The notes beneath the pieces were generated by a model. The model was not told where the DNA came from. It made no database searches and was given only the letters and a program-made list of their open reading frames with translations. Below are positions 8,771-61,900 of a stretch of DNA of 64,000 nucleotides, piece after piece (position 1 is the stretch's first letter; every line of letters starts with the position of its first letter). The position numbers were made by a program, and so were the translations under genes. Source of the stretch: Cyanophora paradoxa CCMP329 (lineage: Eukaryota > Plantae > Glaucophyta); contig QPMI01000469.1 of the NCBI GenBank assembly GCA_004431415.1, positions 62,001-126,000 on the forward strand. The letters run 5' to 3'.

Positions 8771-9066
8771 GAGGGGGGTACCGGTACCACCGCACCGTTG
8801 CACCATAATTATAAGGAGAGCTGTCACGTCAGGAGAGCTGTCAAGGCCACGGCGACGAGCATGGCCTCCGATACGCGCCTGACCGTCGGACCAAGGGGTG
8901 GCTCCGGATCCTTGACCCGGTGACCCCCCCAATTGCAAGCCTTGCAAGCCCGTTCTGCCAGCTGGCGCCGGCCATGCCATGATGGTCGTGCCAGGCCCTC
9001 TATTTAATTTCCGCCGCGAGCCGCCCTTGTTCATCCCGAACGCACTTCGCATCTATATATATATAG

Positions 9067-42929: not shown

Positions 42930-45388
42930 CATGTATTCCATCGCAAGTCAAGACAGCCGCTCGCTGCTCGGCGGGCCGCGCGGCAGACTCGTCCAGCATC
43001 GTAGCACAAGCGTGCACGTGGACGCCTCCGACCGAGGCTAAAGCAGCTCGAACAGCGTTGTACGAGTCTCCCGACCGTGCGCGCTCGCCCGTCGGCCCCG
43101 CTGAGCCGCGTCATACCGCTTCGCTGCACTGCGCGGCATTGCGTGACTTTCGCGCGTCAAAATGCAGGGAGCGTCGTCGTCGAAACGGACTTCGACTCAG
43201 GGAACGGGAGGGTCGTGCGCACGCAGGTCCTGGGTCCGGACGCCGAGTGCGTCATCTGGATCGAGATCGAACGTGCGTGCCGCGCGAGTCCCTCGCAGGC
43301 GCCAGCGCATGTACAGGTGGCTTATCGCGCTCGCAGCTGACACAAACTCTCGGGACTACCAGTGGTATGTCCTTGAAGAGTTAGCGCTTTGCTTTTACAT
43401 TGACGCGGCATCGTGGGCGCAGGTTCCATGTTCGCGTCCGGTCCGCTCCGCTCTCCCCGGGCCCGGCCCCGCCGCTCTCCCGGCCTCGCTTGAGCCTTCC
43501 CCGTCAGATGCGCTCCAGGCCGCCGCCTGCGCCTGATCTTCACCAACGCGCCCGCCGCGTCGTACCCCCGCGGCTGGCAGGGTACGTGTCCGTGCCTGTA
43601 CCCCCGTCCGCTCTGATCGAGCGGAACCGTGGCGTCAGGGTACCGGGCGTACTGGAGCGCGGGGGCGGCCGTGGAGGACTCCGACGCGTGGGAGACTGCG
43701 GAAACGACGTACGACCCCAGCGAAGGCCTCGCGTGCGCGCTTTGCCCCGGGCCCCTCTGTCGTCCGAGGGGCCTCCGCGCTCCGAGTCTTACATGAGCGC
43801 CCGCACCTCCCCCCCCCCCCCCCCCCTCCGCGCGCAGCGTGCGGGTTGTACCCCGATCTGACGAGACTGACGTCGCCCTCTTCGTGCCGTACTCCCTCGC
43901 CCAGGCCCGCAGGGGGATCGGAGGCGGGGGGTACAGGATCGCGCCCCTCATCGCCTCTTCTCGCCACAGGTGGACGCGCTGGTACGGCGGGCGGCGGAGA
44001 GCCGGCGCTGCTCGGCCACGGTGATCGGAGCGAGGCAAGGAGCCGCTGCCGGGGGTCGCTGGAGCGGTGGCTCGGGAGGGCTGACGGTGCGGGGGGCAGC
44101 GTGGAGGGGCGGGCGATCACGGAGCTGCGGTTCGGGGAGGGGCGGGCGGGGGCGGGGAGCAGCTTCTCCCGCCGCAAGCACCTCTGGGTCATCGCCCGCC
44201 AGGCGCGCCCCCGCCCCCGCCCCCGCCCCCGCCCCGCCCCCCGGGCACCGCCGGCGAGCCCCGCCCCGCTGGGGCGCGCAGCACCCCGGGGAGGCGATGG
44301 CCTCTTTCTTCGTCGAGGGCCTCGTCTCCAGGCGCGCCGGCCCGCCCGCCCTCCGCCCCCGCGCCCCGAGGCCGGCCCCGCAGGCTGCTCGCTTCTGACG
44401 CGGGGGCCGAGGACGCCGAGGTCGAGCGGCTGCTGGCCCGCGCCGACGTGCATGTCGTACCCCTCATGAACCCCGGTACGCGCGCGGGGCGAGGGCATCC
44501 GAGGAACTCACGCGCCCGCCCGGGGGCACAGACGGCGTGTTTTGGGGCAACCACAGGAACAACGCCGCCGGCATCGACCTCAACAGGCGCGCGCGCCGCG
44601 CGGCCGGCATACGTGCGTGCAGGGCAGCGCTCACCCGTGCCCCTCGGCAGGCAGTGGAACACGCCGGACCCCGAGCGCGCCCCTGAGGTGAGCGTTCTGC
44701 TGGCTAGTCCTCGCCGGCTCCCTCACCGCCCGGCCGACGATTCCGCCTTCCCCCCCCCCTTTTTCCCCTGCCCCCCGCTGCAGGTGGCGTGCGTGCGGAA
44801 GCGGATGGAGGAGACGGGCTGCCACTTCTTCCTCGACGCCCACGGCGACGAGGGTTCGAGCCCGCCAAGGTCCCTTCAATCTAGACAGGGCTTGAGATTG
44901 TCCCCCTCTCAGGCCTCCCTTACGTCTTCGTGGCGGGCTCGGAAGGCGTACCTTCTTTCGGGCCCCGCGTCGCCGACCTCCAGGTATCCCCGGACCCTTG
45001 ATCGGTTTCTCTTCTTCCTGCCTCTTTTTGCTGACTGCCCCCTCAGGACCGGTTCAAGGCGCTGTACAGCAGTGTGAACCCGTCCTTCCAGGACGAGTGC
45101 GTACCCCGCGTGCAGAGCCTTCACGCGCACGCGCGCGCCTGCGCAGCGAGGTGAGGGGGCCTGGGGCGCAGGTACAACTACGGGCGGCGTGCGCCGGGGA
45201 GGGCGAACCTGGGAATCGCGACGAGCTCGGTGGGGGAGCGCCACCGCTGCCTCGCCTTCACCCTCGAGATGCCCTTCCTCGCCTGCCGCCGCGACCCCGA
45301 CCCCCTCCACGGCTTCGGCGCCCCCCGCGCCCGCCGCCTCGGCGCCGCCCTCCCCGCCGTCCTCTCCTCCCTCGTCGACGACCTCTAG
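42930..45388 (+). CDS. M14-family zinc carboxypeptidase (cytosolic carboxypeptidase-like), multi-exon
   Basis: DFDSGN, QWFHVR, ARQHPGE (HxxE), PLMNPDG, NAAGIDLNR, FLDAHGDE, FTLEMPF. Start codon uncertain. Confidence 0.88.
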
Positions 45389-45516
45389 CCACACAAGGCA
45401 GGCAAGCCTATAGCTAGCCATAGGTCAGGGAGGGAGCCCAGGGGCAGGCGCAGCTGCAGCCTAGAGAGATCGACAGGAAGTCATGATCAGCAGCGGCAGC
45501 CGTCAGGGAATCAGAC

Positions 45517-45545
45517 GCAGCGCAGCGCAGCGCAGCGCAGCGCAG
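45517..45545. repeat. (CGCAG)n pentanucleotide repeat next to the host/virus junction
   Basis: About six CGCAG units read directly. Confidence 0.85.
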
Positions 45546-45564
45546 GTCACGGGTATACGAAGCA

Positions 45565-45847
45565 ACACATAGTAAAATGCGGAGTTTTAACCCTCGGCTT
45601 ATCTTAATTGATTTTGTTGATATATCTCGTATATTCTATTTCAATCAATCGATAATCTGTGTATATCTTATCGAATATTCAATTATTTCGATTATTTTGT
45701 ATTCTTTTCGATATTTTATCGTAAATCTCTCTTATTTTCCGATTAGTCTTACTGAGTCTATCGATAATCTGTATATATTTCCGAATAATATAACTGAATC
45801 TCAATTAGATCTTGCCTCTGGTTAAAACTCCGCATTTTACTATGTGT
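45565..45847. repeat. 28-bp perfect inverted repeat (45565-45592 / 45820-45847) around a 227-bp T-rich spacer
   Basis: ACACATAGTAAAATGCGGAGTTTTAACC and its exact reverse complement. Confidence 0.95.
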
Positions 45848-46101
45848 GATTGGTCTAAAAGTTAATTGATTTAATCGATATTATATTCATGTACTTTCTC
45901 GATTAAATTTAATTAAATTTAATTCATTTAATCGGAAATATATCGCTAAACTCGATTAAGATCCATAAAAGATTCATTTGTTTAATAAAACAAATCGATC
46001 TCTTATTGAATTCAATCGTAATTATACATGAAACTTATATGATTTGATCATTGTTTTATTGAGTCTAAGGGGGGACCCTTAGGAATTTAATGAATAATTG
46101 G

Positions 46102-46192
46102 GTGTCACAGGTGTCACAGGTCCATCCCATCGAAAGGGAAAATCACTCTTTATAGGGCTTGAGCTGGGATAAACCTGTGACACCTGTGACAC
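46102..46192. promoter_or_regulatory. 20-bp inverted repeat built from 9-bp tandem units; candidate replication origin or protein-binding site
   Basis: GTGTCACAGGTGTCACAGGT (46102-46121) and ACCTGTGACACCTGTGACAC (46173-46192). Function is inferred. Confidence 0.55.
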
Positions 46193-46698
46193 ATACCATA
46201 TTCAGTAAGGACCTCATATATTGTTAAAATCTCAGTGTTAGTTGGTGTAGTTGATTCAAAAAATGCATTTATACTCTGATTCATTGTTATTTCCTGTGAA
46301 ATTTGAGTCAACTCAACCCACTTAGTCAACCCTTGCATTGAATTCGTAACAAAATCCATATACTATTACTACTTTTACGATTAATATGAGTCAACCTTGA
46401 GTCCACTTAAATATAAATATAATATAATAGGGGGAATCTAGGGCAGATGCTGAGTGTTATTGTAAGGAAATCGAATAGTATTCGAAATACTTGACATTGC
46501 TTAATGTAGGGTGCATTCATATTTCGGCTACATCATACAGTAGAAATCTATCGTAACAAATGACCGGAATCCGGAAAATAATCATTGTAGAAAGCTATTG
46601 TATGAAAAGGATATATTATATCCTTTTTTAACAGTAGCTGATCAATGTTATTGTTAGAAAAACAAAGGAATCCTTTAGAAATTCATTATAGAAACCCA

Positions 46699-47097
46699 TC
46701 AAAACGGGAATCTATCATGTTTATGTCTCTCAGTCTTCTCAAATGTGAGGAAATTCATTGTTTTATCGATCTCATCAGCAACTGCTTGTGTTTTATGCTG
46801 AGCTTCTTTACCACAACTGAATATATCAATTGCTAACATACCTTCATTGGAATAACAATGAGCTGTGCAATGGCTTTCATCTAAAAGCAAAACCAATGCA
46901 AACCCAGGAGGTGATACTTTGCCATCAAATATCTCACAGTGTTTATGAACAATCCTAATGCCTTGTCTTAATACTGCTTGTTCAAGGGTTCCCATAATCC
47001 AATTACCTAGGAAGCTAACATGCTCATGTCCTGTTGCAATAGCTGATTTAGCCTTGTAATCAAGCATAACATGAAAGCCTCTGTATTGAGTCTCCAT
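46699..47097 (-). CDS. speD: Prokaryotic-type pyruvoyl S-adenosylmethionine decarboxylase proenzyme (SpeD/SpeH-like)
   Basis: 132 aa; G.HVMLD N-motif, PPGF..VLLLDESHCTAHCY self-cleavage motif, AIDIFSCG. Confidence 0.9.
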   Translation of the reverse strand: METQYRGFHVMLDYKAKSAIATGHEHVSFLGNWIMGTLEQAVLRQGIRIVHKHCEIFDGKVSPPGFALVLLLDESHCTAHCYSNEGMLAIDIFSCGKEAQHKTQAVADEIDKTMNFLTFEKTERHKHDRFPF

Positions 47098-47126
47098 TAA
47101 GAATACCTTAGAAAAATTAATTAAAC

Positions 47127-47399
47127 CTAATCGAACCTAATACACACATCCCTATATTCCACAGTGATTGATGAAGTAGCCCTTTTCCTATAAGCCTGAG
47201 AGTGCTTTTTGTTGCATTCCCTACACCCTGATCCCTTCACATGATTGAATGGATAGGTAAGGATCACCTTATTACACTGCAAACATCTAACAGATACTTT
47301 CTCTTGAGCTTTGATGTAATGTGTCTCACTGTAATCGAATTTATCTTTACCATGAACTGTCATAGCAGCATCAATAAACTTTTTTGTTTTAGTATCCAT
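47127..47399 (-). CDS. Stand-alone DUF723-like zinc-ribbon protein
   Basis: KFI..A..VHG.DKFDYS...Y.....KV...C..C......P.NH..G.GC..C pattern, seen in viral homing-endonuclease-associated domains. Confidence 0.75.
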   Translation of the reverse strand: MDTKTKKFIDAAMTVHGKDKFDYSETHYIKAQEKVSVRCLQCNKVILTYPFNHVKGSGCRECNKKHSQAYRKRATSSITVEYRDVCIRFD

Positions 47400-47421
47400 A
47401 CTCTATATATACCCAATATTC

Positions 47422-48255
47422 TTATGGAGCAGTATCCTGCCCAAAAATGGGGAAATATCGATTTGTGCCATAGTATTCAGCATAGGTATTCTGCTTTGCA
47501 ATAAAATCGGTTCTCTCAGCATATAATACACACTTGTAGATACCAAACTTGGTGGCTCTCACTAAGAACTGGTAATCTTCTAAACCGAAATTGACTCCAT
47601 GATAAGCAATTCCAAAATTATCATATGGGGTGATCACAACAGCAAAATTAGGAGTTCCACCCTCTACTTGACAAAGAGCATAAACATCTGGTGGAATATC
47701 CACAACAACCTTGTAGTGGTCACCAATCTCAACAAGAGAGTCTACTACTGCTGTTTGTTCATTTACAACAATGGGGAATATCTTTATAATGTATGGGGCA
47801 TTCATGCTGGGGACATAGGTTCGAATTCTTGTATTGGAATCAATGGGATTGGGTTGATCATTCACAAATAAAGGCGCTCCAACAGCCCCACCAACCCTAA
47901 GACCATCACCAATATAAGCTCCCCCCGATTTGCAGTTAATAGCTCCCGACCTAGATTCAAAAGAATAAGTAGACAGAGGATCTCCATAGCTATCTGGGTC
48001 TCCATAATGAGCAGAGAAGTTTGCATTTGTGACAAGTAGCTTAGTTGTCTTAACTATTCCATTATTTTTATCACATCTGAGTTCCTGTAATCTCAGTTTA
48101 TGGGTGGAACCAAAGGTGTTCATTGTAGGTTGGACCTCTGTTGATTGGAGACCCTCTACATCATCAAAGGTAGCATGCTGTAGAACATGGTTTGCTGGGG
48201 CAGCTAATGATAGCTGTGGTGTAATAATTCGTTCAAGTGGGGGTTGCTCAGCCAT
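47422..48255 (-). CDS. Fibre-like paralogue 1 (shared N-module; phage-fibre-type C-terminal domain)
   Basis: ELRCDKNNGIVKTT..SGGAYIGDG module; C-terminal IP..VYAL..VVITPY..Y.CVLYAERTD. Confidence 0.65.
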   Translation of the reverse strand: MAEQPPLERIITPQLSLAAPANHVLQHATFDDVEGLQSTEVQPTMNTFGSTHKLRLQELRCDKNNGIVKTTKLLVTNANFSAHYGDPDSYGDPLSTYSFESRSGAINCKSGGAYIGDGLRVGGAVGAPLFVNDQPNPIDSNTRIRTYVPSMNAPYIIKIFPIVVNEQTAVVDSLVEIGDHYKVVVDIPPDVYALCQVEGGTPNFAVVITPYDNFGIAYHGVNFGLEDYQFLVRATKFGIYKCVLYAERTDFIAKQNTYAEYYGTNRYFPIFGQDTAP

Positions 48256-48278
48256 TTTACATTAAAGGGATATATCTT

Positions 48279-49124
48279 TTATGGGGTTGGGTCATCAATT
48301 ACATCTGGCTCTTGGTAAAACCCTGTTTGAGAAAGAGTATCAGGAGTAACACCTCTAAGAGCTGAGACAGCAGCTATATCTGTTCTGATACCCATAACTG
48401 TAATTGTATATTTTCCAATATCTGTAACAAACAGATCATAGGTGAAATTGTTATTATAAACACAGAACCCTGTGCCGAAATGATCATATCCCTGAACACT
48501 GAAATTGTATCTGTGACCTGGCTGGTTATTGTTGGCTCTACATAAAGAAAGCATTGCAGAAGGAATGACCAGCCCTCTCATTACTCTTTTGGTTCCTTCA
48601 ATCAATTCAGAGTTTTCAAGTGTGACAGTATAACCTTGGTAAAATTGAATAAGTGGCTGTTGTGCAACTGGTATATATAATCGAATTCGTTGGGGGTCTT
48701 CAACATTCTGTTCAAGAGTATCTGGGACATCATTATACGAAATTGAGGATGAAAGCTGACCTGAAACTCTGCAGCCACCCCCAATAAAAGCTCCTCCTGA
48801 TCTCACAGTAACAGCTGCAGAATTCTTATCGAAATCAAGGGCTTTCAGATCAACACTGTAGGCATCAGGACCTCCATTGGTAGGCTGGAAAAAGTTAGCA
48901 TTTGTGACAAGAAGTCGAGTTGTTTTAACCACACCAGAATTCTTATCAGCTCTCAGCTCTTTAACTCGAATAATCGAATTTTTATCAAAGGAGTTGCCAT
49001 TGGAATTGGGTCTCTCTGTGGATTCTAAACCACGAACCTCATCATTTACTTCATGCTGGCGAAAATGCATTGCAGGGGATCCAAGGGAATATATAGGCAG
49101 TTGAACTCGATTATATTCACCCAT
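48279..49124 (-). CDS. Fibre-like paralogue 2 (start more likely at MGEYNR, 49124)
   Basis: ELRADKNSGVVKTT..SGGAFIGGG module; C-terminus alignable to paralogue 1 (YDHFG..KYTITVMGIRTD). Confidence 0.65.
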   Translation of the reverse strand: MGEYNRVQLPIYSLGSPAMHFRQHEVNDEVRGLESTERPNSNGNSFDKNSIIRVKELRADKNSGVVKTTRLLVTNANFFQPTNGGPDAYSVDLKALDFDKNSAAVTVRSGGAFIGGGCRVSGQLSSSISYNDVPDTLEQNVEDPQRIRLYIPVAQQPLIQFYQGYTVTLENSELIEGTKRVMRGLVIPSAMLSLCRANNNQPGHRYNFSVQGYDHFGTGFCVYNNNFTYDLFVTDIGKYTITVMGIRTDIAAVSALRGVTPDTLSQTGFYQEPDVIDDPTP

Positions 49125-49159
49125 TGCTTCTTTTACTAAGAAGGAAAGAAAAATAATGT

Positions 49160-49426
49160 TCATTGTTCTTCTGTGACATTATTATACTCAATACCTTTCT
49201 TTACAGTTCCCTTTTGGAAAGCCTGCAACACAATTGCTTCCTTGGAGGTTGGTATTTGAACTCCTGATGAGATACAAGATTGAATCTCTTTCTGAACAAT
49301 CTCATCAATTGCAATTCTTGCCCTGTTATGAACAACATTATCAATCCAATCCTGAACAGAGGCAGCACAGTACTCCATTCCCAAATTTTCGGTATCAGAT
49401 AGAACAACTTGGTATATATTCGACAT
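49160..49426 (-). CDS. Small phage-type protein, candidate fibre assembly partner/chaperone
   Basis: 88 aa with LSDTE..MEY.A....WI.N...NRARIAIDEIV, which I recall from small ORFs next to C1q-type tail fibres in aquatic phages (not searched). Confidence 0.55.
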   Translation of the reverse strand: MSNIYQVVLSDTENLGMEYCAASVQDWIDNVVHNRARIAIDEIVQKEIQSCISSGVQIPTSKEAIVLQAFQKGTVKKGIEYNNVTEEQ

Positions 49427-49447
49427 TCCTACTTAATAGTGAGAAAA

Positions 49448-50472
49448 TTATGTGATACTTAGAAGTTCACCAGTAAACATGGTTCGACTTGAATAACTAC
49501 CTGTGGTTCCTGTGACAATTGTTACATATTCTCCTGCAGCAAGATTGAGTATAACATTTATATAAAGAGGTTTTGCTGCAATTGTTGTCGAAGTTCCAAA
49601 GGTTCCAATGGAAAGACCACCAGGGTTAGTGTCATTCACCTGCAAAGTAAGACTTACAGAAGATGAAGTTGTGGAGGCAGAGTTTACTGTAAATCTGTAA
49701 TGACCTGCAACAGGAGCTGTAAATCTTCCATTGCCTACATTGAATGCACCTCTGTTATCAATAAAAACTGTTGTCCAGTTAATGAGAGGGGCAGCACTTG
49801 TAGCAGTGTGTGTGTAACCAAGTTGAACACATAATCGAGGTTGAAAATCATACTTTAAATAACATCCTGTATTCAGGGTGAAACTATTGGCTTCCAGGGT
49901 CGCCATAACATCACTATTGCGTTTAAAAACCAGATTTGCGCTTGATCCTGTGTCTATTTCAGGTGTAACTATTTTGGTAGTTGCTGAAACAATAGATTGT
50001 TGCGCCCCAGGAACATACACACCCCCATTTGCTGTTACCAAATCATTAAACGTAGTTGCTCCTGTTACTGTGATTTGTTCTGTTGTAAGATTCCCATTTA
50101 TTCTTGCTCCATCTCCAATGTATGCCCCTCCACTTTTTACCACAAGAGCAGAGTTATTACTTGTGTTATCAAAAGTAACAATCTTGGGTGTGGTGAACCC
50201 TCCCACATCATCATAAATTGCAGAATCCGAAACGATCTGTCCTGATTGAACTTGATTTTTATTCGAAACTATGAGACCTGTGGTTCTCACCTTCCCCCCA
50301 TTTCGATCACATCGAATTTCTTTGCATCTAATTACAGAGTTCTGCGAAAATGAATCTGCCCCAGTTGTTTCTGTACAAATAAAACCTGGGTTGCATCTGT
50401 TACAGCATGGTTAAGTTGGTGTATTTTTGGGGCAGCATAACAGAAAACAGGGACTGCTATTTGAGTAGCCAT
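49448..50472 (-). CDS. Fibre-like paralogue 3 with C1q-like tip; one 1-bp frameshift near 50388-50390
   Basis: Adding one C joins MATQIAVP..DATPGFICTET..KEIRCDRNGGKVRTTG to ORF 49448-50290. C1q-like GRFTAPVAGHYRF..LNLAAGEYV..FTGELL. Confidence 0.75.
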
Positions 50473-50494
50473 TCTTTATATTACACAGACAATA

Positions 50495-51567
50495 TTATAT
50501 GGCGCTTACCAGATAACAGCCCAAGTAACATCGTTGGCTTATAGTGATAGTAACACCTGTTGAGTTTAATATTCCAACACTGTCCCCATGTTAAGAGTAA
50601 TTAATGTTTCGTATGTGATAGCCATTTGTCCTGTTAATGAACATTGAAATTCGTAATTGGATGCAATTCCATTTATTGAAAGCTTTAAGATAGTCACATA
50701 AGAAGTCTGAGTATCTACTCTGAGAGCTGTGAAGAAAACCCTGTATACACCTGCAACAGGTGCAGTAAATAAATACCAATCATTCCAGTTGCCTTCATTG
50801 TTGACATAATAAGTGGCGAAACTAGGAACTGTAAAGGTAACTTGAGAGCCAGATGCCCATGATGATGTTGATACTGTCTGATTGGGTAACAGTTTTGTGA
50901 CACAAAATCTTGGGCAATAGGTCCTTTTCAGATAGCAAGTTGGAGAAAGTGTGAATGATTTTATCTCTGTCTCTGCAACTGTCGTTTTTTCAAGAGTGAC
51001 AATTGTATTACCATTTACTTTGTAGGTCATGTTGGAATCTGTTCCAGTACCAATTTCGGGTGTTTGAACTCTCAGAAATGCTTGAAGTGTCCCATAAATT
51101 ATATTTCCTAAAAGACCAGAGTTGATATTCATTAATTGAGTAAAACTGCTTGTCCCATTCACAGTCAACTGATTTGCTGTGACAGTCCCCACCACAATTG
51201 CTCCATCACCAATGTAGGCTTCTCCACTTCTGACTACAAGAGCCGAATTATTTATTGTGTTATCGAAATTAACTATCTTTGCTGTGGTGAATCCACCCAC
51301 ATTATCATATATTGCTGAATTGGGGACTATTTGACCTGCTTGAATCTGATTTTTATTCGAGATTATAATGCCTGTGGTTCTTATCTTGCCTTCATTTCGA
51401 TCACATCGAATTTCTTTGAATCTGAGTATATTGTTCTCTGTGAAAGAGGTATTACTTGAAGTTTCAGTGCAAATATACCCAGGGGTTGAATCAACTACTC
51501 CATGAGAGGTGCTATGGAGTGATTTGGCTGCAAGTTCATAGTTTGGGATCTCTAATAGTGAGGTCAT
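50495..51567 (-). CDS. Fibre-like paralogue 4 with C1q-like tip; one 1-bp frameshift near 50584-50587
   Basis: KEIRCDRNEGKIRTTG module; FTAPVAGVYRVFF. Adding one G restores the C1q-like end LNMGDSVGI..YLGCYLVSAI*. Confidence 0.75.
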
Positions 51568-51586
51568 CTTTATATTAATCAAATAG

Positions 51587-54500
51587 TTAAATTGCGACAG
51601 CAATGTAATGGATTGTCACAGTTTTGGATGAATTATTCATTGCATATGGATCAGTGAAAAGTTCACAAGTGAAATAGTTACTGTAAACCTCCAACAGGTT
51701 CACAGTAAAAATGACAGGAGTTGCTTGATAATTTGGATCTTGTCCTTCATGCCTTACTGTTGCTGTCACAACAGGAGGAGAAGCAAAGGCATTGGTAAAA
51801 TAGATAGTTAGATTGAACACATAGAGATTATTGTAGTTCAAAACAGGAGTAGTGTAAACATACTTTCCTGCTTGAATTTTCCCATTCAAATATGCATTGA
51901 GTTGACTGGAAAGATCTGCTTCTGTAATGCATCTACTGATAGTCTGATTATTTGAAGGGTTCATAGCATAGAAATTCCTTGCATAGGCATTCCCTCTCAC
52001 AAGTAGTGTTTGATCATAATAATTCTGCGAATTGTGGAAAAACCATGTTTCATCAAACATAGGTCCTGCTGGTTCTACAATCTGACCTGATCCTACATAC
52101 ATTGTGCTGTTGGCTCTAATAGTGGTTGCTGTGAATGGATCAAGAGTTGGTCTATTGGTCAAATCATTGTAGTTGCCTGAGAATATTGCAGGTTTGTTAG
52201 AGATATCTGTATTCCAATCATGAGTGTGTGCAAAGTCTGTAATCTCTGCCTTTGTGTGATTGTGAGCAAAATCTGTTATCTGTGACTTGGTGTGAGTGTG
52301 TGCAAAATCTGTGATCTCAGATTTAACATGAGTGTGAGCGAAATTCGTAATATCTGCTCTGGTGTGGGTGTGAGCAAAATCTGTTATCTGTGATTTTGTG
52401 TGAGTGTGTGCAAAATCTGTGATCTCTGCTCTTGTGTGGGTGTGTGATCTATTATTTAGATCAAGGAAGCTTCCCGAAAATGCAACAGGATGCAGATTTG
52501 CAGCAGTAGGTTTATTAATGAGATCATTATAATCTCCTGTAAATGAAATGGTTTTCAGTTCACCCCTTCCTACATAATCAGAAGGTAGATCAATCTTGAT
52601 GGGCATGATAGCTGGATCATCTGGAATCTCATACTCACCTCCTGGGTGAACCACAGGGAAGGTTTGATTGCTTTCAGTGTGGACAAAGAAATTGCATGCT
52701 GTTACTGTTCCATCAATAATCCCACCTGTGAGAGGGAGGTAATTTCCTGTGACTCCTATACCTGCAATGATTGTATTAAGTTCTGTTTCATCTATGTAGT
52801 TCTGGGCTTGAAGGTAATCCTCTGTCACCACTCTTGATATGGTCTCATTGTGAATATTCTTTGCTGCTGCCCTCTGATTGATCTCTAGAACTCCCTCACC
52901 AACTCCACCATTATAATTCGTTTTGATCCATGCCATCTCACATCTCTTATAGTCATCTCGATTTCCTATGAGAGCATCAGGTAACAGTCTCTCCCTGCTA
53001 AATATTAACTTTGGTCTTGAACCATCCAAATCACTCACATCAGTAACATTTATTTGGATTGCTGCATCTTTATCATCAAAGTTCACTGGATCAGATGGAA
53101 GTGGTGGTAATCCTGCTGTCATTGGGATGTCATCAGCATAGTAACTTGTCAAATAGATACCTGGTTTGGTGTCCAATGCTCCAAAGTTTCCACCTGCTGC
53201 AATCATCTGCATTCTTGTAGGGGGTCTGATGTATAATTCACCCTCCATAGTGGTCCCTGCATCAATGCCTTTTCGATTTACATAATAGTCATTGAGTTGC
53301 GGCCTTTCAGGTATGGCATTGCTCTGGTAAAGACTCACACCATGTGGGAAATCTGTTAACAGATTGCCTGCAGATGCAAATTTGGGTTGCTGATCGATTT
53401 CACTCCAAGGGTGTCTGTGATTGCAGTTGGTGATCTGGGTATAATCATGAGTGTGAGTATCAGGAGGGAAGGTGATAGGTTTGTCTACAATATTTGACCA
53501 GGCATGGGTGTGATCATCTGGGGGAAAAGTCAATGGTTTGTCCACAATATTCGACCAGGCATGAGTGTGATCAAAATCTATAATTTGGTCTTTGGTGTGG
53601 GTATGGTTTTTGATCCACCCATCCACAACATTTGAAGTTGAATGATGTGGGAGGTTTGCATTAGATGTAACAGTAAGAAAATCGACAGTTATATTGCTTG
53701 CATAAAGGTTACTTGTGTAAAGGTTACTGGTTACAGTAAGGTCCCCTGTGATTGTTCCACCAGTTTTGAGAAGATACTTTGATAATTCAAGAGCAAGTTC
53801 ATTTTTCGTTACATAATTTGCGAGCATAGCAAGGGTGACTATATTCACAAGAACAACAGCAGTAAGGTAATCCTCTGTGACCACTCTCGAAATATTTTCA
53901 TTGTGTATGTTTTTTGCAGCCATCCTCTGATTGGATTCCAGAACCCCACCATAGTTGGTTTTAATCCATGCAAGCTCTGCCCTTCCATAATTATCATTTG
54001 CAGTTCCCACTATGGGAATGTAGGAATATTTATCTCTGCTGAATACTATCATTGGTCTTGAGCCATCTAAACTGCTTACATCTGCTACATGAACCTGTAT
54101 AGCAGAGTTGTAATTTTGGTAGGTTGCTGGGTCTGTAGGGACTCTGAATGTATCTGTGGGAATGTCAGCCTCCATGTAGCTTGACACAAAGATATTTGGT
54201 ATGGTTGCTCCTGGTTCAGGTGGTGGATTATAAGAGCCTGGTAATGTCCTAATATGAAGTGGTCCTCTCATAGCTGAATTTGCAAGTGTCCCATTCACAT
54301 GAACATAGTGTTCATTCAAAAAGATCCTTTCAGGGATATTACAAGTCTGGTAAAGAGAAACCCCCAAGTTATCAAGAGGCTCCACCTTTGCGAATTCTGG
54401 TTGGTCATTGATCTCATCCCAGGTGTGTTCATGGTTGCTTGCTGCAAACTTATCTGGAATCCCATCAATTTCACCCCAATCATGCCTGTGATCCTCTGGT

Positions 54501-55870
54501 GGATACTTCTGAGGTTTGCCTAAGATCTCATCCCAATCATGATTGTGATCCTCTGGGGGATACTTTGCAGGTTTATTATTAATTTGTTCATAATCAGGAA
54601 AGAACTCCCAGATCTCAGGTCGAAATCCATCTGGTAATAATTCCTCATGGGGTTCATAAGGTTGCTCATAGTCAACAGCTGGTGGATCATGCCCATCTGG
54701 CAAATACTCCTCATCAGGTTCATAGTTCTGCTCATACTCAAACTCTTGTGGATCTAAGCCATCTGGTAGTATCTCCTCCTCATTGGGATCAAACTGATCA
54801 TATTCATATTCTTGTGGGTCAAAACCATCTGGTAAATATTCTTCCTCATCTGGAACGAATTGATATTCATCAAGCTCTAATATATCGACTTCAGGAGGTA
54901 AATACTGCTCATCTATTTGCTTTCTGGGTTCAATTATAGGTTTATTGCGAACTTGCTCCCAACTAACAATATGCTGCCCAAAGGCTACATCTTCAGTTGC
55001 TGTGTATTCTCTTCCAGGCTGCTTCTTTGGTGTTAAATCGGGAGGTCCATTGGGAAATGGAATAGGGAATGGGACTGTTGGTCCATTGGGACCATAATGC
55101 TCGATTATTTCCCTTAGAGTTTTCTCACTCACAAGTTTCTCCCCATTTGCATACACATTGCTGCCATGGATATTTCGCCATTGCCTTGTTCGAATTCCAA
55201 GGTCTTTCACATTGCTATACAAAGGCAAAAGGTGCCTATCCATTTCGACTAAATCAGGGTGTAAATGGATTGCTACTGGTTGACTGGGGCTACTGTTGAT
55301 TGTAATTGATGGCTTTTTTTGATGGACATCTTTTGGAGTAAAAAACCCAAAAGGCTCATTCCTCGCAAAGTCATATGTAATATCCTTGGGGTATACATCA
55401 TTTGTGTAGGAGACCTGATTTGTGTTGGCAATGGGACCCACTTGCAATACTTGGGGGACCTCAGCTTTTGCAGTGTTGCCCTCACTGTAAATTCGCAAAG
55501 CTGTGTTCTGTTTGCCCTGCTCATCTTGAACATTGAAAATCAATCGACCACTATCGAACCTGGAAGGTATATCTGGGTGAGTGCCACTGGTTTTTAGTTT
55601 CCTAGGTCTCCTTCTTGTTGCTTTGATCTCTGCCACTTGGTTTGCTTTCACATTACCCAAGGTGAAAGCAACACTGACATCCTCCTTATCTGGATCGGTT
55701 TGATTCACAGATAAAGCATGCTCCCTTGATTGAGTCTTTGAAGAATTATCCGAGCTGTGGTCAATTGAAACTGAACCCTTTACTTTAATATTATCAAAGT
55801 TCACATGCTTGGTGCTGCTTGCATTATCATCTTGAATGGTTTCTAGATTGGGTGGGTAATTGAAGCTCAT
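51587..55870 (-). CDS. 1427-aa tail-fibre-like protein with acidic repeats, HxH tail repeats, a duplicated internal module and a C-terminal H-type-lectin-like domain
   Basis: EEYLPDGxDP repeats; HTHTKSQITDFA and HTHAWSNIVDKP repeats; YLxxTGGxIxG shaft motifs; two copies of GVSLYQ..AWIKTNY..ISRVVTEDYL; C-terminal F..AFASPPVVTAT..IHYIAV. Confidence 0.8.
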   Translation of the reverse strand: MSFNYPPNLETIQDDNASSTKHVNFDNIKVKGSVSIDHSSDNSSKTQSREHALSVNQTDPDKEDVSVAFTLGNVKANQVAEIKATRRRPRKLKTSGTHPDIPSRFDSGRLIFNVQDEQGKQNTALRIYSEGNTAKAEVPQVLQVGPIANTNQVSYTNDVYPKDITYDFARNEPFGFFTPKDVHQKKPSITINSSPSQPVAIHLHPDLVEMDRHLLPLYSNVKDLGIRTRQWRNIHGSNVYANGEKLVSEKTLREIIEHYGPNGPTVPFPIPFPNGPPDLTPKKQPGREYTATEDVAFGQHIVSWEQVRNKPIIEPRKQIDEQYLPPEVDILELDEYQFVPDEEEYLPDGFDPQEYEYDQFDPNEEEILPDGLDPQEFEYEQNYEPDEEYLPDGHDPPAVDYEQPYEPHEELLPDGFRPEIWEFFPDYEQINNKPAKYPPEDHNHDWDEILGKPQKYPPEDHRHDWGEIDGIPDKFAASNHEHTWDEINDQPEFAKVEPLDNLGVSLYQTCNIPERIFLNEHYVHVNGTLANSAMRGPLHIRTLPGSYNPPPEPGATIPNIFVSSYMEADIPTDTFRVPTDPATYQNYNSAIQVHVADVSSLDGSRPMIVFSRDKYSYIPIVGTANDNYGRAELAWIKTNYGGVLESNQRMAAKNIHNENISRVVTEDYLTAVVLVNIVTLAMLANYVTKNELALELSKYLLKTGGTITGDLTVTSNLYTSNLYASNITVDFLTVTSNANLPHHSTSNVVDGWIKNHTHTKDQIIDFDHTHAWSNIVDKPLTFPPDDHTHAWSNIVDKPITFPPDTHTHDYTQITNCNHRHPWSEIDQQPKFASAGNLLTDFPHGVSLYQSNAIPERPQLNDYYVNRKGIDAGTTMEGELYIRPPTRMQMIAAGGNFGALDTKPGIYLTSYYADDIPMTAGLPPLPSDPVNFDDKDAAIQINVTDVSDLDGSRPKLIFSRERLLPDALIGNRDDYKRCEMAWIKTNYNGGVGEGVLEINQRAAAKNIHNETISRVVTEDYLQAQNYIDETELNTIIAGIGVTGNYLPLTGGIIDGTVTACNFFVHTESNQTFPVVHPGGEYEIPDDPAIMPIKIDLPSDYVGRGELKTISFTGDYNDLINKPTAANLHPVAFSGSFLDLNNRSHTHTRAEITDFAHTHTKSQITDFAHTHTRADITNFAHTHVKSEITDFAHTHTKSQITDFAHNHTKAEITDFAHTHDWNTDISNKPAIFSGNYNDLTNRPTLDPFTATTIRANSTMYVGSGQIVEPAGPMFDETWFFHNSQNYYDQTLLVRGNAYARNFYAMNPSNNQTISRCITEADLSSQLNAYLNGKIQAGKYVYTTPVLNYNNLYVFNLTIYFTNAFASPPVVTATVRHEGQDPNYQATPVIFTVNLLEVYSNYFTCELFTDPYAMNNSSKTVTIHYIAVAI
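52222..52446. repeat. 36-bp coding tandem repeat (HTHTxxxITDFA, ~6 copies)
   Basis: Read from the DNA and its translation. Confidence 0.9.
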
Positions 55871-55913
55871 GGCTTTTACTATATGGATTTATAAAATTCC
55901 TGATAAGTAAAAG
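55871..55913. promoter_or_regulatory. 43-bp divergent intergenic region with inverted AGTAAAAG motifs next to both start codons
   Basis: CTTTTACT at 55873-55880 and AGTAAAAG at 55906-55913. Confidence 0.5.
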
Positions 55914-56147
55914 ATGCCTCTCAAGGTCGTTTTAGCATTGTCAGGGGGAGGTGCAAGGGGCATTATCATAACCAGGCTGCTAAAAGAAATCGAAAATCGA
56001 ACTGGCAGGAGAATAATCGATCTTGTGGATCTTGTGAGTGGAACTTCCACTGGTGGGATCATTGCAATAGGTTTGAATATAAGGCATCCTGATAGACCAG
56101 GTGAACCTAAACTGACAGCAAACGATTTACACAATATTTTGTTTTAG
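55914..56147 (+). pseudogene. Patatin-like phospholipase, N-terminal fragment interrupted at ~56140
   Basis: LALSGGGARG glycine loop and GTSTGG nucleophile motif are present. The catalytic Asp (DGG) region is missing, and composition changes at the break. Confidence 0.85.
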
Positions 56148-56739
56148 GAGGTTTTATACGTCCCAGTAGACCTTAGCAACCTTCCCGTAGCGTACCAGCA
56201 GCAGGCGAGCAGGCTGTCACGTTGCAAGAGAAAGCTGCTAATCACAGACTACTGTGTACCCTAGGACACGGCTACCGGAAAGTATCAAGCTAGAGTCAGA
56301 AAAAGTAGCTAGGGTCGCATCTTCGTACAGGGGTACAGTGACTCAGGAAATCGCGAGAAGCCGCGGGTCAAGTCACGGTACTACTGCGAACGAAGTGCAA
56401 ACGAAGCACTAACGGCTAGGAAACCCTATCGGCAACAGCTCTCCAGGTCCTCACAGACGCTTCCACGCGGCTGGATCAGAAGAGATGTAGAGCTGCGCAT
56501 TTGGTTGAGGGCAAACCAGGCAGCGGTGATCAGCCGCTGACCCAGCGCCAAGAGAGAATTCCCGAAACTCGCAAGCCACATCCCAGTGAAGGGCACGTCA
56601 TCGACAACGGAAGTGAATCCGGTAAACCGCAGTACCACTGGGAGATCATGTGCTGGTACGCCGACTGAGTAATAGTGCTTCGCCGACCTTTAGTACACCG
56701 ACAAGGTCGGTGTTTTCCCACGGGCGATTACTCCGACCA

Positions 56740-56828
56740 GGTCGGTGTAATAGGGGTCGGTGTAATAGGGGTCGGTGTAATAGGGGTCGGTGTAATAGGG
56801 GTCGGTGTAATAGGGGTCGGTGTAATAG
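56740..56828. repeat. 15-bp tandem repeat GGTCGGTGTAATAGG (~6 copies), preceded by CCGAC/GTCGG hairpins
   Basis: Read directly; hairpins ACACCGAC-aag-GTCGGTGT and ATTACTCCGACC-a-GGTCGGTGTAAT. Confidence 0.92.
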
Positions 56829-57293
56829 CGAACGTTGCCAACTGGCCCACTCGTTCTTTTCATCCCAGCGGCGTGTGGCTATTTGATTTAATGTTTAAAT
56901 TCCATCACACATGTAGCTGAATAAGTTTGACTAGAAAAAGCTGTCGCACAGAATACCTCCTGCGTATATCTAGCTATAATGCATATATATTTATCTGGGA
57001 AAGGATAAGGCAGGTCCCGAAGAAGAGACGAATGTGTCCCGCACCTCGAACCTTGAGCTTGTTGGCACTGGCTGGAACTGCGGACTTTGTTGAACGCATT
57101 GGCGAACTCTCCAGAAGTTGACGGATTGGTGCAATCATTCTGCGAATGAGAAGCACATTTAACGAAATTATAAAAACAGCTTGGAAAGGCTCGAACCATG
57201 AGCAGCTTGGTAAGGCTCGAGGTTGAGGACGAGGTTGGAAAGGCTCGAACCATGAGCAGCTTGGAAAGGCTCGAGGTTGAGCTCGAGCCGGAC

Positions 57294-58252
57294 GAACAAA
57301 GGGACTTGCGGAGACGTCGATTTCGTTGGGAAATCTGAGAAAGAGGACAATATAAAACATGATCCAGTTGTTGAAAAGGAAGCTGGGGATGTGGGGTACG
57401 CTGGACGCGCACGAACCGTGAGGCGCGATGATTTCTTAGAGGAGTATGAGTATGAAGTATGAAGAATGAGTATCAAGCTTGGGTTCTTGTGTCTTGCACT
57501 GGTGGACGTCTTGAACTATGGAGCTGGGGTGTGTGTGGATCTTGTTCTATGAGGTCGGTTGGCCTTGATTGCACGTTTTGTTGGTCTCATGTGGTGCCTT
57601 GAGTGGCCCGTCGGTTGGGAAAGGTCCGTGTTCCGCAAACTTCGAAAGCCGTATGAACAAAGGGACTTGCGGAGACGTCGATTTCGTTGGGAAATCTGAG
57701 AAAGAGGACAATATAAAACATGATCCAGTTGTTGAAAAGGAAGCTGGGGATGTGGGGTACGCTGGACGCGCACGAACCGTGGGGCGCGATGATTTCTTAG
57801 AGGAGTATGAGTATGAAGTATGAAGAATGAGTATCAAGCTTGGGTTCTTGTGTCTTGCACTGGTGGACGTCTTGAACTATGGAGCTGGGGTGTGTGTGGA
57901 TCTTGTTCTATGAGGTCGGTTGGCCTTGATTGCACGTTTTGTTGGTCTCATGTGGTGCCTTGAGTGGCCCGTCGGTTGGGAAAGGTACCGGTCCGTGTTC
58001 CGCAAACTTCGAAAGCCGTATGAACAAAGGGACTTGCGGAGACGTCGATTTCGTTGGGAAATCTGAGAAAGAGGACAATATAAAACATGATCCAGTTGTT
58101 GAAAAGGAAGCTGGGATGTGGGGTACGCTGGACGCGCACGAACCGTGAGGCGCGATGATTTCTTAGAGGAGTATGAGTATGAAGTATGAAGAATGAGTAT
58201 CAAGCTTGGGTTCTTGTGCCTCGCACTGGTGGACGTCTTGAACTATGGAGCT
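57294..58252. repeat. ~361-367-bp tandem repeat, about 2.6 near-identical copies
   Basis: Units start at 57294, 57655 and 58022. Differences include a 6-bp insertion and a 1-bp G-run change. Confidence 0.95.
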
Positions 58253-58701
58253 ATGAGGTTGGTTGGCCTTGAGTGTGTGTGGAAGAGTAAATGGAAGTCT
58301 AAGAATGAGTATGAAGTATGAAGAATGAGTATCTTGGGTTTTAATCTAAAAAGGGTGCGCGAAACAAATTCTTGAAAGAGAATAATAACTGAAAAACAGG
58401 GGAAACGAAGTCCCCTCCCCTCCACCAGTGCCCACTTAGCCCGTCCCCTCTCCAAGCTTGGTGGATGTCTATATGTCTTGCACTTGGGTACTTGGGACTG
58501 GATGGAAGAGTAGGTGTGTAGTAGAAGAGAGTAGAAGAGTAGAAGGTACTGGTACTTGGAAAAGTGGAGAGTAGTATGTGTGTGTATCTAGAAGAATGAG
58601 TATGAAGTATGAAGAATAAGTATCTTGGGTTCTTGGGTTCTTGGGTTCTTGTGTCTGGGATGTCTTGGTGGATGTCTTGAACGATGGTGCTGGGGTGTAA
58701 G

Positions 58702-58784
58702 TCCCCTCCCCCGCCCCAAGCCCCCCCCCCCCCCCCCCCCGCCCGCCCCGCCCCGCCCCCCCCCCCCCCCCCACCCCCACCCCC
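58702..58784. repeat. Poly-C tract (G-quadruplex-capable on minus strand)
   Basis: Read directly. Confidence 0.85.
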
Positions 58785-58999
58785 GGCCACGTTTCAGCCC
58801 GCGCTCGACAACCTGCGAGAATCAGAAGGCGAGTGGAGGTGTTAAAACGAAAAATATAATTGTTGACACTAGAAACTGTTACTACAGTTTGTGTCAAGAA
58901 ATTTGAGCGTTATCCTCCAGTTCATCTAAAGTCGATAAAATGTCGTGTCCATTGACTCCGTCGTTAGCTTCTGTCGAAAATATCGATACATTAAAGAGA

Positions 59000-61900
59000 T
59001 TTGAAGACGGTCACACCTTGAACGCCAGAACGATCTGCTTGCGTGTTCCCTGGAAAAACTGACATTTACAAAACCGGGTGAACCGCCTGCGCATTGTTGC
59101 GAACCGTTTGGCTTCATGAGGGGAGCGGTGGTGTGTGAGGAGGTGTGTGAGGAATCGACAAAAATATCCGTATGATCTTGCCATGTGTTCTCTTCTGGAT
59201 AATCTTCTAAAAAAATGGCAGGAAGGGTGTACTGCGAAAAAACAAATGACGTCAAATTTTCATATCATAATTAAAAATCACATTTACTCACATTTTTGGA
59301 AATGTCGTCAGATATGTGGTCGAACAAGGCGTGCGGGAGAAATTTACAGCTCTCTCGACTAAGAGCGTTGAGCTGATGTTCTTTGACAACATGTGACCTG
59401 TGCAAATCGTAAGGAACTATCACACTGATAAAGAAACATTACCGCGTACATGAACGCAGAATCAAGAATTGCGCCTTTGATGAATTTGTTGATCTCAGTT
59501 ATAACAAAAGTCGACCAAGTCCGAATTTTCTCGACCTTGTTAACCGCAGGAAGTCGATGCTCGTAAATCACTGCGAATTTAATGTTAAGGCGAAGTCTAA
59601 CGCACGTCTGAGGCGAAGTCTAACGCACGCTTCCCACTCTTGGGTTCAGGAATAACAAAACCAACACCAACAACAACGAGTTCGCCAGTTTCAGTCATCT
59701 CCCAGTTATATTCGCTTTCGTCGCGCTGAGCGGATCTCCGCAATAAATTGAAGCGATTCCAGCCGTCGTACTCATCCATTTCCACCTCTCTGAAACAAGG
59801 AGGTTCACCCAGCTTGCGCTTGTCTGCTTTGATTCGTCGAGCAACAGATTGAAGCGGAAGCTTGATCAAAACACGTTTGACCTGAAAACACATAAGCGTT
59901 CAGGTCTTGGACTTACACGGGAATACTTACACGCTTGGACTCGGGCACATCAGGTCTTGACCTTAACACCATTTCGTCACGAAGTTGTTGGCATTGAGAT
60001 AAATACCTTTGAGATTTTGGCTTAATCACAACCGCAACCTGCGCATTTCATGGCCGGCGTCACAAAGAATGGTAAAATCATCACAAACAGACCTTGGAAT
60101 GCTGGAGTTGAACTGCTCGTTGCTTCTTCGCGCCAGTCGTTCTTTGGAGAGTAAATAACAAACGACAAATCTTTCTTGTGACATTTAAAGCGTACCTTTC
60201 ATCTGAACCATTGCTCGACGACCCAGGACGTTTGTATCCTCTCGTCGCTGGTTCAAGGCTCTGTTTGGATATTTTGTCATCGTCATCGTCAATCGCGTTT
60301 TGATCGGAATCTTCGCCCTTTTCGGCCTTCGGCGGTCTCACGCGTGGTCTTCTTTGGCGCTTATGTGGAATTGCTGCGAACTGCGAGCAATCAAATGTTT
60401 GACTGATCATTTTTCACTTGCACGCACTGGATCGTGTTCAACGAGCGACATGGACGGTTCGTTGACGCTTGGTTCGTCATGCACAGGAGTCTCTTCGATC
60501 AGGTCAGCTCTCCAGAAGATTGATTTGAACCGTCCCGAGATGCTTTCCATATTGGGCTGCAATATAAGTTGGATTTGAAAAAATTGAAGTCATTCGCTGA
60601 AATTGAAGGCATACCGCATTCGTTTGCTGGACAGACGAGACTCTAAGATCCTGAAAATGCCATGGAACTTTCATACCAATGCGTCTCGCCGTCATAACAA
60701 CGACCAGATGTTCAACGGAGACTCCATGACTGTCCTGAAAGAACAGTTAGAAGTTATAAAAAGCAAACAACGATCAAACCTTTGGCAAGATGATGCCATG
60801 TTTCTTGACAAGAAGCTCGATGTTCACTCGACCAGTGTACATCCCAGCGGCAACAAACTCTTTCGTGACATTGCCAGTTGAGTCAGTTCTTGGATAATAA
60901 AGGTTAACCAATGCGCCAAATGGCAAAGAGGTCTGCTCGCGTCCTTGTCGACACTTTTCGATTCGCATTCTCCATCCCACATCTGAACAGCGCCATCTGA
61001 TTTGAGAAACGGCGTCACTGCAAAAATGTTGTCAGAGTCCAAATGAATTCGAAGTAATCAAAATGCAAAAACGAACGCCAATCGGCAGCATGTACGGTCC
61101 GGGTGAGATCCTTAGTCTTTGCATCGATATTGGTTTTTTTCTTCACCAAGTACTTCCGGTGTTGCGGGAGTCGTAGCCAATGATCTCACCGGATGACTCC
61201 TTGAAATATTGTTCAGAAGTATTTAATGATCTCAACCGATGACATCTTCGAAAAAATATTCAGAGGCTTACGTCTAAAAGTGCGAGCGAAGACCGCTTGT
61301 CTTTTCGCCATAGCCAGAGTCGGTAGTTCAGATACTTTTGGGCAACATGATCCGTGTAAGGTTCCTGTGATTGTTAAAGTTTGTAAGGTTCCTGTGATTG
61401 TAGAAGAATTTCAAATACCTGAAGTTTATGTGCAAGAAACTTGATAACGAGTATGATTCTTGAACGAAGTCCTGCCAACAATGGAATACATAAGCACCTA
61501 CAGTCGACAATCTCGAGGTTTGTACCGGGATAACAATTCGAGAAGTCAGACGGCCTCGGCTCGCAAATCGCTCTCCAGAGGCAGAAGATGATGGGCATTA
61601 AAGCTTCGTCAAAAATCCGGATATTGTCCGACTTTGTATATTTTTTCCCCTCCCGATGCTTTACCAGAAAACCACATCCTGTGCAAAAATGAGAATTTGA
61701 AGGCAAGTGAATATCGATCAATCTAACCTTCCGGTGGTGATGCGAAAATGTGGTCGTCAGGTACTTTGATATCGTACTTGGCATCGACAAAAAACTGTTG
61801 AAATTGAAGAATATGGTTGCGCTGATTTGCGCTGTTAATGTCAAGACTGAGAAAAATAAAAAAAGTACCAGTTCAGCGTTCGATCCTTGAAATCGATATG

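What the first reader, a model, noticed from the sequence alone, without database searches (positions are those of the whole stretch)
46699..56139. Context-specific CpG loss in the viral segment: nearly only TCG/CGA survives
Seen: a manual count in the 4.28-kb fibre gene gives 31 CpGs, versus about 150-160 expected at ~39% GC. Thirteen are TCGA and 30 of 31 have T before or A after, where chance would give roughly half. The neighbouring genes show a similar but less strict bias. The non-coding left end is rich in TCGA/ATCGAT, while host DNA and the insertion after 56,140 are CpG-rich. Inference: footprint of a methyltransferase, mutator or restriction system hitting VCGB but sparing TCGA, or of a viral TCGA adenine methylase protecting those sites.
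Basis: partly seen in the sequence, partly recalled or inferred. Interest (0 to 1): 0.75.

Follow-up and report, generated by a model that had tools for sequence, protein, structure and literature searches.

The report
Algal provirus shuns CG except TCGA
A many-copy virus-like element in what is likely an algal genome has lost most CG pairs except those in the word TCGA, and also the words GTAC and GGCC, likely because selection removed the targets of DNA-cutting enzymes of a co-infecting giant virus, which would point to an undescribed enzyme that recognises CG unless a T precedes it.

Summary
Confirmed, and wider than reported. In 46,699-56,139 there are 87 CpGs against 370 expected. TCGA is neutral (38/34), half-sites are at 0.26 and VCGB at 0.045. 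Codon-matched nulls and the flanking host, LTR and AT-richer blocks do not reproduce this. One rule fits: each VCG on either strand cuts survival about four-fold, and TCGA is the only CpG with no VCG. A TCGA-only protector (TaqI-like methylase) is rejected. New here: GTAC and GGCC are nearly absent too, and sites are avoided even where the cytosines are not the silent base (Val GTR before C 0/32; conserved Arg never CGB). That points to selection on sites rather than plain deamination. Among 61 non-redundant small viral contigs (4 of 13 checked carry virophage/PLV hallmark genes), 60 lack some 4-base palindrome, but none shows this TCGA-sparing rule. Best reading (0.45): avoidance of giant-virus restriction or nicking enzymes, with a CviJI*-like degenerate CG cutter inferred. 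Main rival (0.3): escape from host CpG methylation. No enzyme, capsid gene or methylation data were found. The scan noted restriction-site avoidance in two other small viruses before; its word search returned no note on this VCG rule.

The parts
45565..56139 (.). Visible left part of a high-copy, AT-rich (38.6% GC) endogenous virus-like element carrying the motif bias; cut at 56,140
   Evidence: Depth jumps at about 45,565; a host-junction contig has depth 90 against element contigs of up to 3,358-9,000 in run X2; copies 85-100% alike. Bias:
45565..45847 (.). Left end with 47-nt inverted repeat arms (45,565-45,611 and 45,801-45,847); the arms hold 2 of the left end's 4 VCGB
45565..46698 (.). 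Non-coding terminal region, TCGA-rich (12 vs about 3-4), CpG not depleted overall
46699..47097 (-). Prokaryote-type S-adenosylmethionine decarboxylase
   Evidence: PF02675 E=2.8e-11; 10 homologues at 42-60% identity
47127..47399 (-). 90-aa zinc-finger protein like those of HNH/endonuclease families
   Evidence: PHROG 681 and 559, E about 1e-8
47422..48255 (-). 277-aa paralogue with shared N-terminal domain; all 10 Arg conserved in both homologues use AGR or CGA
48279..49163 (-). 294-aa paralogue
49160..49426 (-). 88-aa ORF, unknown
49448..50475 (-). Paralogue ending in a C1q domain, broken by a frame shift near 50,390-50,410; its middle holds most VCGB exceptions
50566..51567 (-). 333-aa paralogue
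51587..55870 (-). 1,427-aa fibre with phage-tail-type repeats; 31 CpG, 13 TCGA
   Evidence: PHROG tail and tail-fibre families
53299..53304 (.). One position (53,301) that creates both the fibre gene's only VCGB and the element's only GGCC; not seen in other copies
55914..56139 (+). Patatin-like phospholipase, N-terminal part, interrupted at 56,140
   Evidence: PF01734 E=4.2e-11; a contig of run X1 continues past 56,139 with other sequence
56140..56437 (.). 298-bp LTR-like repeat (TG...CA ends) inserted in patatin; no CpG bias; internal control

Best explanation
The element lacks a set of short DNA words (VCG on either strand, GTAC, GGCC, partly GCAC/GTGC), likely because selection removed the targets of restriction or nicking enzymes met during its cycle, most likely those of a co-infecting giant virus. 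Shown: each VCG lowers a CpG's survival to about 0.24, so VCGB (two VCGs) is nearly gone, half-sites fall to a quarter and TCGA (none) is neutral; sites are avoided even where neither cytosine is the silent base. Inferred: the element is a PLV/virophage-type provirus that is copied while a giant virus is present. A three-base or CviJI*-like CG enzyme would cut both strands at VCGB, one strand (or weakly) at half-sites, and never at TCGA. Separate four-base cutters would account for GTAC and GGCC. TCGA needs no protector. The enzyme could also be encoded in the unseen part of the element.
For: The one-parameter VCG model fits 10 classes (deviance 14.2, df 9, AIC 46.3) against TCGA-only (AIC 76.1) and uniform loss (AIC 145.6). 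Silent-site retention is symmetric: TCGA 19/84, VCGA 15/166, TCGB 15/200, VCGB 3/391. Non-CpG words: GTAC 2 vs 31.8, GGCC 1 vs 18.2; still 2 vs 10.9 and 1 vs 7.3 in a codon- and dinucleotide-preserving null. Site-level avoidance: Val GTR before C 0/32 vs 88/165 (p=8e-10) with no excess of the deamination product Ile ATA|C (10/36 vs 27/101); Gly GGY before AC/GC 6/32 vs 54/97; CGA share of CGA+AGA 16/25 after T vs 4/50 after V; CGG 0/34; none of 24 conserved Arg uses CGB. GTR|C and CGA results hold in the fibre alone and without it. Context: 60 of 61 non-redundant small viral contigs lack at least one 4-base palindrome (GGCC 22 of 34 testable, GTAC 20 of 60) against 1 of 69 simulated controls; 3 of 69 have a CG-trinucleotide void. 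Chloroviruses encode 2-4-bp cutters, 3-base nickases and CviJI*, which cuts RGCY, YGCY and RGCR; their packaged enzymes are thought to degrade host DNA within minutes (PMC7019647 passages). PLV methyltransferases were proposed as a shield against giant-virus restriction (10.64898/2026.06.19.733378 passages).
Against: No nuclease, methyltransferase or helper virus was found, and the element's class is unproven. No VCG-specific enzyme appears in what I read. The CpG loss exceeds that of the free viruses (non-palindromic VCGB O/E 0.03 vs median 0.92; only 2 of 69 below 0.2), which fits a host-nuclear cause. Human DNMT3A also disfavours T at -1. CpA/TpG are in excess (1.38). GAC loses its C in a strand-specific way, like a mutation mark (Asp GAC 23/126, NNG|TC 5/29, middle base unaffected). 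Three diverged subfamily contigs gained 4 CpGs among 40 listed variants vs 5.6 expected, including apparent ACGT and ACGG sites (only 40 of 76 rows were visible, so flanks may be wrong). The comparison contigs were all picked by one methyltransferase-like gene, so they are not a random sample.
Confidence: 0.45

Rival explanations
1. Two agents: GTAC and GGCC are lost to restriction enzymes, but the CpG layer is selection to escape silencing by host DNMT1/DNMT3, which would methylate VCG better than TCG on each strand.
For: If the host is Cyanophora paradoxa (named only in earlier AI notes; flank GC 68.1% vs published 67.6%), it has 32% mCG, DNMT1 and DNMT3, methylated repeats and methylated viral genes (PMC12344493). 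DNMT flank preferences are strong: human DNMT3A most disfavours T at -1; mouse DNMT1 ranks TACGTA and TCCGTA best and CGCGAG among the worst, and GCG is the least depleted VCG here (0.16 vs 0.09-0.10). The integrated element is more CpG-poor than nearly all free contigs. Trinucleotide-biased host methylation is known in Amoebidium.
Against: The LTR and other repeats in the window show no CpG loss or flank bias. The non-coding terminus keeps CpG at O/E 1.05. DNMT3A disfavours G at +1, yet CGG/CCG is as lost as the rest. No flank data for this host were found in the text or supplement legends.
Confidence: 0.3
2. Mutational footprint: a viral, helper or host cytosine methyltransferase with VCG (plus GGCC, GYRC, GAC) specificity marks the genome, and 5mC deamination erodes those sites without selection on the sites themselves.
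For: CpA/TpG excess 1.38-1.45. Strand-specific GA[C] loss. Before G, Gly and Val/Leu third positions match the drain-to-T prediction. Chloroviruses carry up to 18 methyltransferases, some with 2-3-bp targets.
Against: Avoidance occurs at non-cytosine silent bases and at conserved Arg, with no Ile ATA|C excess. The pooled mass-balance test was inconclusive and leaned to selection under both baselines (lnL -265 vs -273 and -281 vs -308). Of 32 copy-specific differences examined, 3 are CpGs present only in the window and none is a CpG lost in it. A very high mutation load would mimic selection, so this is not excluded.
Confidence: 0.17
3. A viral TaqI-like adenine methylase protects TCGA against general CpG loss.
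For: TCGA is at or above expectation and enriched three-fold at the terminus. PLVs commonly encode methyltransferases.
Against: Half-sites are kept about ten times better than VCGB. The TCGA-only model is rejected (p=1.4e-6). No such gene lies in the visible part.
Confidence: 0.03
4. Artefact of AT-richness, codon usage or protein repeats.
For: The fibre is repetitive.
Against: Three coding nulls fail. The signal holds without the fibre. A free viral contig of the same GC has CpG O/E 1.06.
Confidence: 0.01

Closest known systems
Restriction-site avoidance in phages, and in virophage/PLV-type contigs (measured here; earlier scan notes e1-10191871 and e1-6776189)
   Same: Near-total loss of specific 4-base palindromes (GTAC, GGCC, ACGT, CCGG), avoided at site level
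   Different: Here non-palindromic CpG words are lost too, by a graded per-strand VCG rule, and TCGA is spared, whereas 31 of 59 testable comparison contigs avoid TCGA
Chlorovirus CviJI* and nicking enzymes Nt.CviPII (CCD), Nt.CviQXI (RAG) (PMC7019647, passages)
   Same: Degenerate 2-3-base recognition; CviJI* cuts three of the four R/Y flank classes of GC, the same logic as sparing one flank class of CG
   Different: Core GC or CC, not CG; the enzyme here is only inferred from a footprint
Context-biased eukaryotic CpG methylation: Amoebidium CGC/GCG (PMC11244446), DNMT1 (PMC7381644), DNMT3A (PMC9530848), C. paradoxa repressive mCG (PMC12344493); passages
   Same: CpG target with strong flank dependence; endogenous viruses are methylated and silenced
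   Different: None of the passages reports a TCGA-sparing rule or sequence depletion in the viruses; cannot explain GTAC or GGCC
CpG depletion by 5mC deamination (vertebrate type; general knowledge)
   Same: Low CpG with TpG/CpA excess
   Different: Host and host repeats are not depleted; arginine CGB codons are nearly absent (3 of 112), which deamination under protein constraint would not be expected to give

Membership tests
Restriction-site avoidance | Specific short words depleted beyond Markov and codon-matched nulls | tested here: met
Restriction-site avoidance | Avoidance acts on the site, not only on a mutable cytosine | tested here: met
   GTR|C 0/32; CGA after T 16/25 vs after V 4/50
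Restriction-site avoidance | Confined to the invader, absent from host DNA | tested here: met
Restriction-site avoidance | A cognate nuclease exists in the element's environment | not testable with these tools
   No genome held; no helper virus identified
5mC-deamination CpG depletion | Low CpG with TpG/CpA excess | tested here: met
   CpG 0.24, CA/TG 1.38
5mC-deamination CpG depletion | Lost C drains to T at silent sites (mass balance) | tested here: inconclusive
   disagree by codon family
5mC-deamination CpG depletion | Sites persist where both cytosines are fixed by the protein | tested here: not met
   0 of 24 conserved Arg use CGB
5mC-deamination CpG depletion | 5mC shown at the lost contexts | not testable with these tools
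   Only assembled contigs were available
TaqI-like TCGA protection | Only complete TCGA is spared | tested here: not met
RIP-like host mutation of repeats | Other repeats in the same genome carry the same loss | tested here: not met
   LTR and repeat blocks w 0.87-1.12
Polinton-like virus / virophage | Jelly-roll capsid, A32 ATPase, integrase or replicase genes | tested here: inconclusive
   None among the ORFs of the visible 10.6 kb; the rest of the element is not in the window
Polinton-like virus / virophage | Multi-copy AT-rich insertion with lipase and fibre genes and a repeat at its end | tested here: met
   (typical, not diagnostic)
Polinton-like virus / virophage | Terminal inverted repeats at both ends, 15-40 kb length | not testable with these tools
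   Right end missing

The most novel reading that the evidence does not exclude
An unisolated giant virus of this alga carries a CG-directed three-base endonuclease (VCG) of a new specificity that shreds the CpG-rich, 68%-GC host genome on infection, and the integrated satellite virus has recoded itself, down to its arginine codons, to survive in the chromosome and escape. The provirus's missing words would then list the enzymes of an unknown helper.
Probability: 0.3. Interest if true: 0.75.

Novelty: new variant of a known kind. Interest (0 to 1): 0.52.

Why it matters
The footprint gives a precise prediction (VCG per strand, about four-fold each) that existing methylome data could test. If the host methylome is flat across flanks, it points to an undescribed CG-cutting enzyme and an unknown helper virus, and supports the proposed role of restriction systems in virophage-giant virus conflict. 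If the methylome follows the rule, it shows an endogenous virus recoding to evade a protist's DNMT preference. Either way, missing words could help link small viruses to their helper or host.

Tried and rejected
No genome is held, so other copies could not be searched for methyltransferases. No relatives of the element's genes were found in viral contigs, metagenome contigs or prokaryote genomes. One search gave one distant SAMDC contig (32% identity), used only as a comparison and as the seed. Host lineage by sequence failed: the Forkhead ORF had no homologues and the atlas was uninformative. My early guess of a haptophyte host was dropped. No RNA holder listed. The 277-aa fold was unusable (pLDDT 37.9). 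No Rfam match in 45,000-64,000. PDB search with the fibre gave one weak tail-collar-fibre hit (E=0.008). A strand-specific 'CGA only' rule was rejected (VCGA vs TCGB p=0.70). The mass-balance test was inconclusive. A crude C5-methyltransferase motif screen of 69 comparison contigs found none. Ten literature searches showed no paper describing TCGA-sparing CpG loss or site avoidance in PLVs or virophages; PMC7320823 was seen as a listing only, and subscription journals are mostly not covered. Passages read without bearing: 10.1101/2022.07.28.501842, PMC12480563, PMC12220804, PMC13334186, PMC8634572, PMC12695648.
Full report
Observation. The counts are right. The fibre gene has 31 CpGs (13 TCGA, 17 half-sites, 1 VCGB) against 178 expected; the block 46,699-56,139 has 87 against 370. 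Over nine ORFs, synonymous shuffles give 74 VCGB against 3 observed, with none of 2000 reaching it, while TCGA is as expected (35 vs 33). Host DNA, its lowest-GC bins, the LTR block and the 44%-GC right block show no such bias.

What the segment is. It is the left 10.6 kb of an AT-rich element starting near 45,565 with a 47-nt inverted repeat. It encodes SAM decarboxylase, a zinc finger, four paralogues (one ending in C1q and frameshifted), a phage-type fibre and a patatin cut by an LTR-like insertion at 56,140. Fourteen listed runs of one organism hold half or more of its words. In run X2 a host-junction contig has depth 90 and single element contigs reach 3,358-9,000, with copies 85-100% alike; this suggests tens of copies, though depth is not a copy count. 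No capsid, ATPase or integrase gene is visible, so 'PLV/virophage-type' is inferred. Earlier AI notes name the host as Cyanophora paradoxa. I could check only that the GC content agrees (68.1% vs 67.6%).

The rule. At silent C/T sites on both strands, C is kept at TCGA 19/84, VCGA 15/166, TCGB 15/200 and VCGB 3/391, against a baseline of 0.42. A one-parameter model, each VCG on either strand multiplying survival by 0.24, fits all ten NCGN classes (p=0.11, AIC 46.3). TCGA-only protection (AIC 76.1) and uniform loss (AIC 145.6) do not. TCGA is the one CpG with no VCG. It is neutral over whole genes but somewhat low at silent sites (0.23 vs 0.42), so sparing may be incomplete. Survivors also favour AT-rich outer flanks.

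Beyond CpG. The element has 1 GGCC and 4 GTAC in 10.6 kb (about 9 and 25 expected by a Markov model), and GCAC/GTGC at a third of expectation; the other blocks do not. The one GGCC and the fibre's one VCGB come from the same position, 53,301, where all covering contigs read another base. For one search I used 32 of the 40 rows shown (of 1,223), dropping 8 that lay in clusters of adjacent differences. GAC is also low, in a strand-specific way that I cannot place.

Mutation or selection. Val GTR is never followed by C (0/32 vs 88/165), though neither cytosine of GTRC is silent there, and the deamination product Ile ATA|C is not enriched. CGA replaces AGA after T (16/25) but not after V (4/50). 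CGG is 0/34, CGB is 3 of 112 Arg codons, and 0 of 24 conserved Arg use CGB. The GTR|C and CGA results repeat in the fibre alone and without it. This is avoidance of sites. Against it: CpA/TpG excess, an inconclusive mass-balance test, and 4 CpG gains against 5.6 expected among 40 of 76 variants in three diverged subfamilies. Those contigs still appear to hold only 1-3 CpGs in 225 bp, where about 9 would be expected by my arithmetic; unseen rows could change that.

Comparison. I fetched 80 small viral contigs sharing a methyltransferase-like gene and kept 69, dropping one duplicate and ten under 6 kb. Of 13 scanned, two have a Sputnik-type capsid and two an A32 ATPase; the rest are unclassified. 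At least one 4-base palindrome is below 0.25 of expectation in 67 of 69 (60 of 61 non-redundant), against 1 of 69 simulated controls. GGCC and GTAC loss is therefore ordinary for such viruses. The CpG rule is not: non-palindromic VCGB has median O/E 0.92, only L054 and L077 fall below 0.2, and neither spares TCGA (0.36 and 0.00). The TCGA/VCGB ratio is 44 here against at most 5.7. Three contigs nearly lack one CG trinucleotide.

Mechanism. I commit to nuclease avoidance (0.45). Chloroviruses package restriction enzymes thought to degrade host DNA, and encode 3-base nickases and CviJI*, which cuts all R/Y flank classes of GC but one (PMC7019647 passages; PMC7253447 passages). A VCG enzyme would break both strands at VCGB, one at half-sites and none at TCGA, matching the gradient. 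This enzyme is inferred; none was seen. The chief rival (0.3) is escape from host CpG silencing. C. paradoxa has 32% mCG on repeats and viral genes (PMC12344493, section 6 and passages; supplement searched as text, figures not held). Human DNMT3A disfavours T at -1 (PMC9530848 passages) and mouse DNMT1 has strong flank effects (PMC7381644 passages). A methylation conflict is also reported for punuivirus (10.64898/2026.10.09.758095 passages). But host repeats here are unbiased, and non-CpG methylation in that alga is at background. Deamination alone gets 0.17 and a TCGA methylase 0.03.

Novelty. Site avoidance and CpG suppression are known kinds, and this scan noted restriction-site avoidance in two other small viruses (Rusinov 2018 is named there, not read by me). 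Ten library searches showed no report of a TCGA-sparing VCG rule. Verdict: real, strong, a new variant of a known kind, agent unresolved, and testable with existing methylome data. Interest 0.52.

Noticed in passing
L003-L082 (69 contigs of 6 kb or more): Nearly every small viral contig carrying this methyltransferase-like gene lacks its own set of 4-base palindromes; L003 has 0 ACGT, GTAC and TCGA in 15 kb; CAGG is low in 21 and AGCC in 11.
   Followed up: partly
L075, L077, L054: Trinucleotide voids: L075 has no GCG/CGC, L077 almost no ACG/CGT, L054 little GCG. These could reflect 3-base cutters or Amoebidium-like host methylation.
   Followed up: no
window 46,699-56,139: C two bases after G is lost at silent sites on both strands (153/533 vs 638/1362), most at GA[C] (28/153); looks mutational and is unexplained.
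   Followed up: partly
window 56,140-56,437: 298-bp LTR-like repeat with TG...CA ends inserted in the viral patatin gene; the same piece lies in other contexts in runs X1 and X15.
   Followed up: partly
window 56,683-58,700: 15-bp tandem array (56,725-56,844) with an inverted arm, then three copies of a roughly 361-bp unit; no Pfam match.
   Followed up: no
window 45,565-46,200: Two inverted-repeat pairs (47-nt and 35-nt arms) and repeated ATCGA-type words at the element end; possibly origin or integration signals.
   Followed up: no
window 47,422-51,567: Four paralogues share an N-terminal domain with very few database relatives (4 hits among 1.8 billion representatives); low read depth and joints at 49,340-51,075 suggest a swappable C1q cassette.
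   Followed up: partly
window 1,522-2,802 (-) and 58,800-64,000: A 427-codon open frame with no Pfam or PHROG match in a 51%-GC block, and a 44%-GC CpG-rich block with no recognised gene.
   Followed up: no
window 5,211-35,393: Host genes: Forkhead, phosphoglucomutase piece, EMP70, P4-ATPase, WD40, RNase PH.
   Followed up: no
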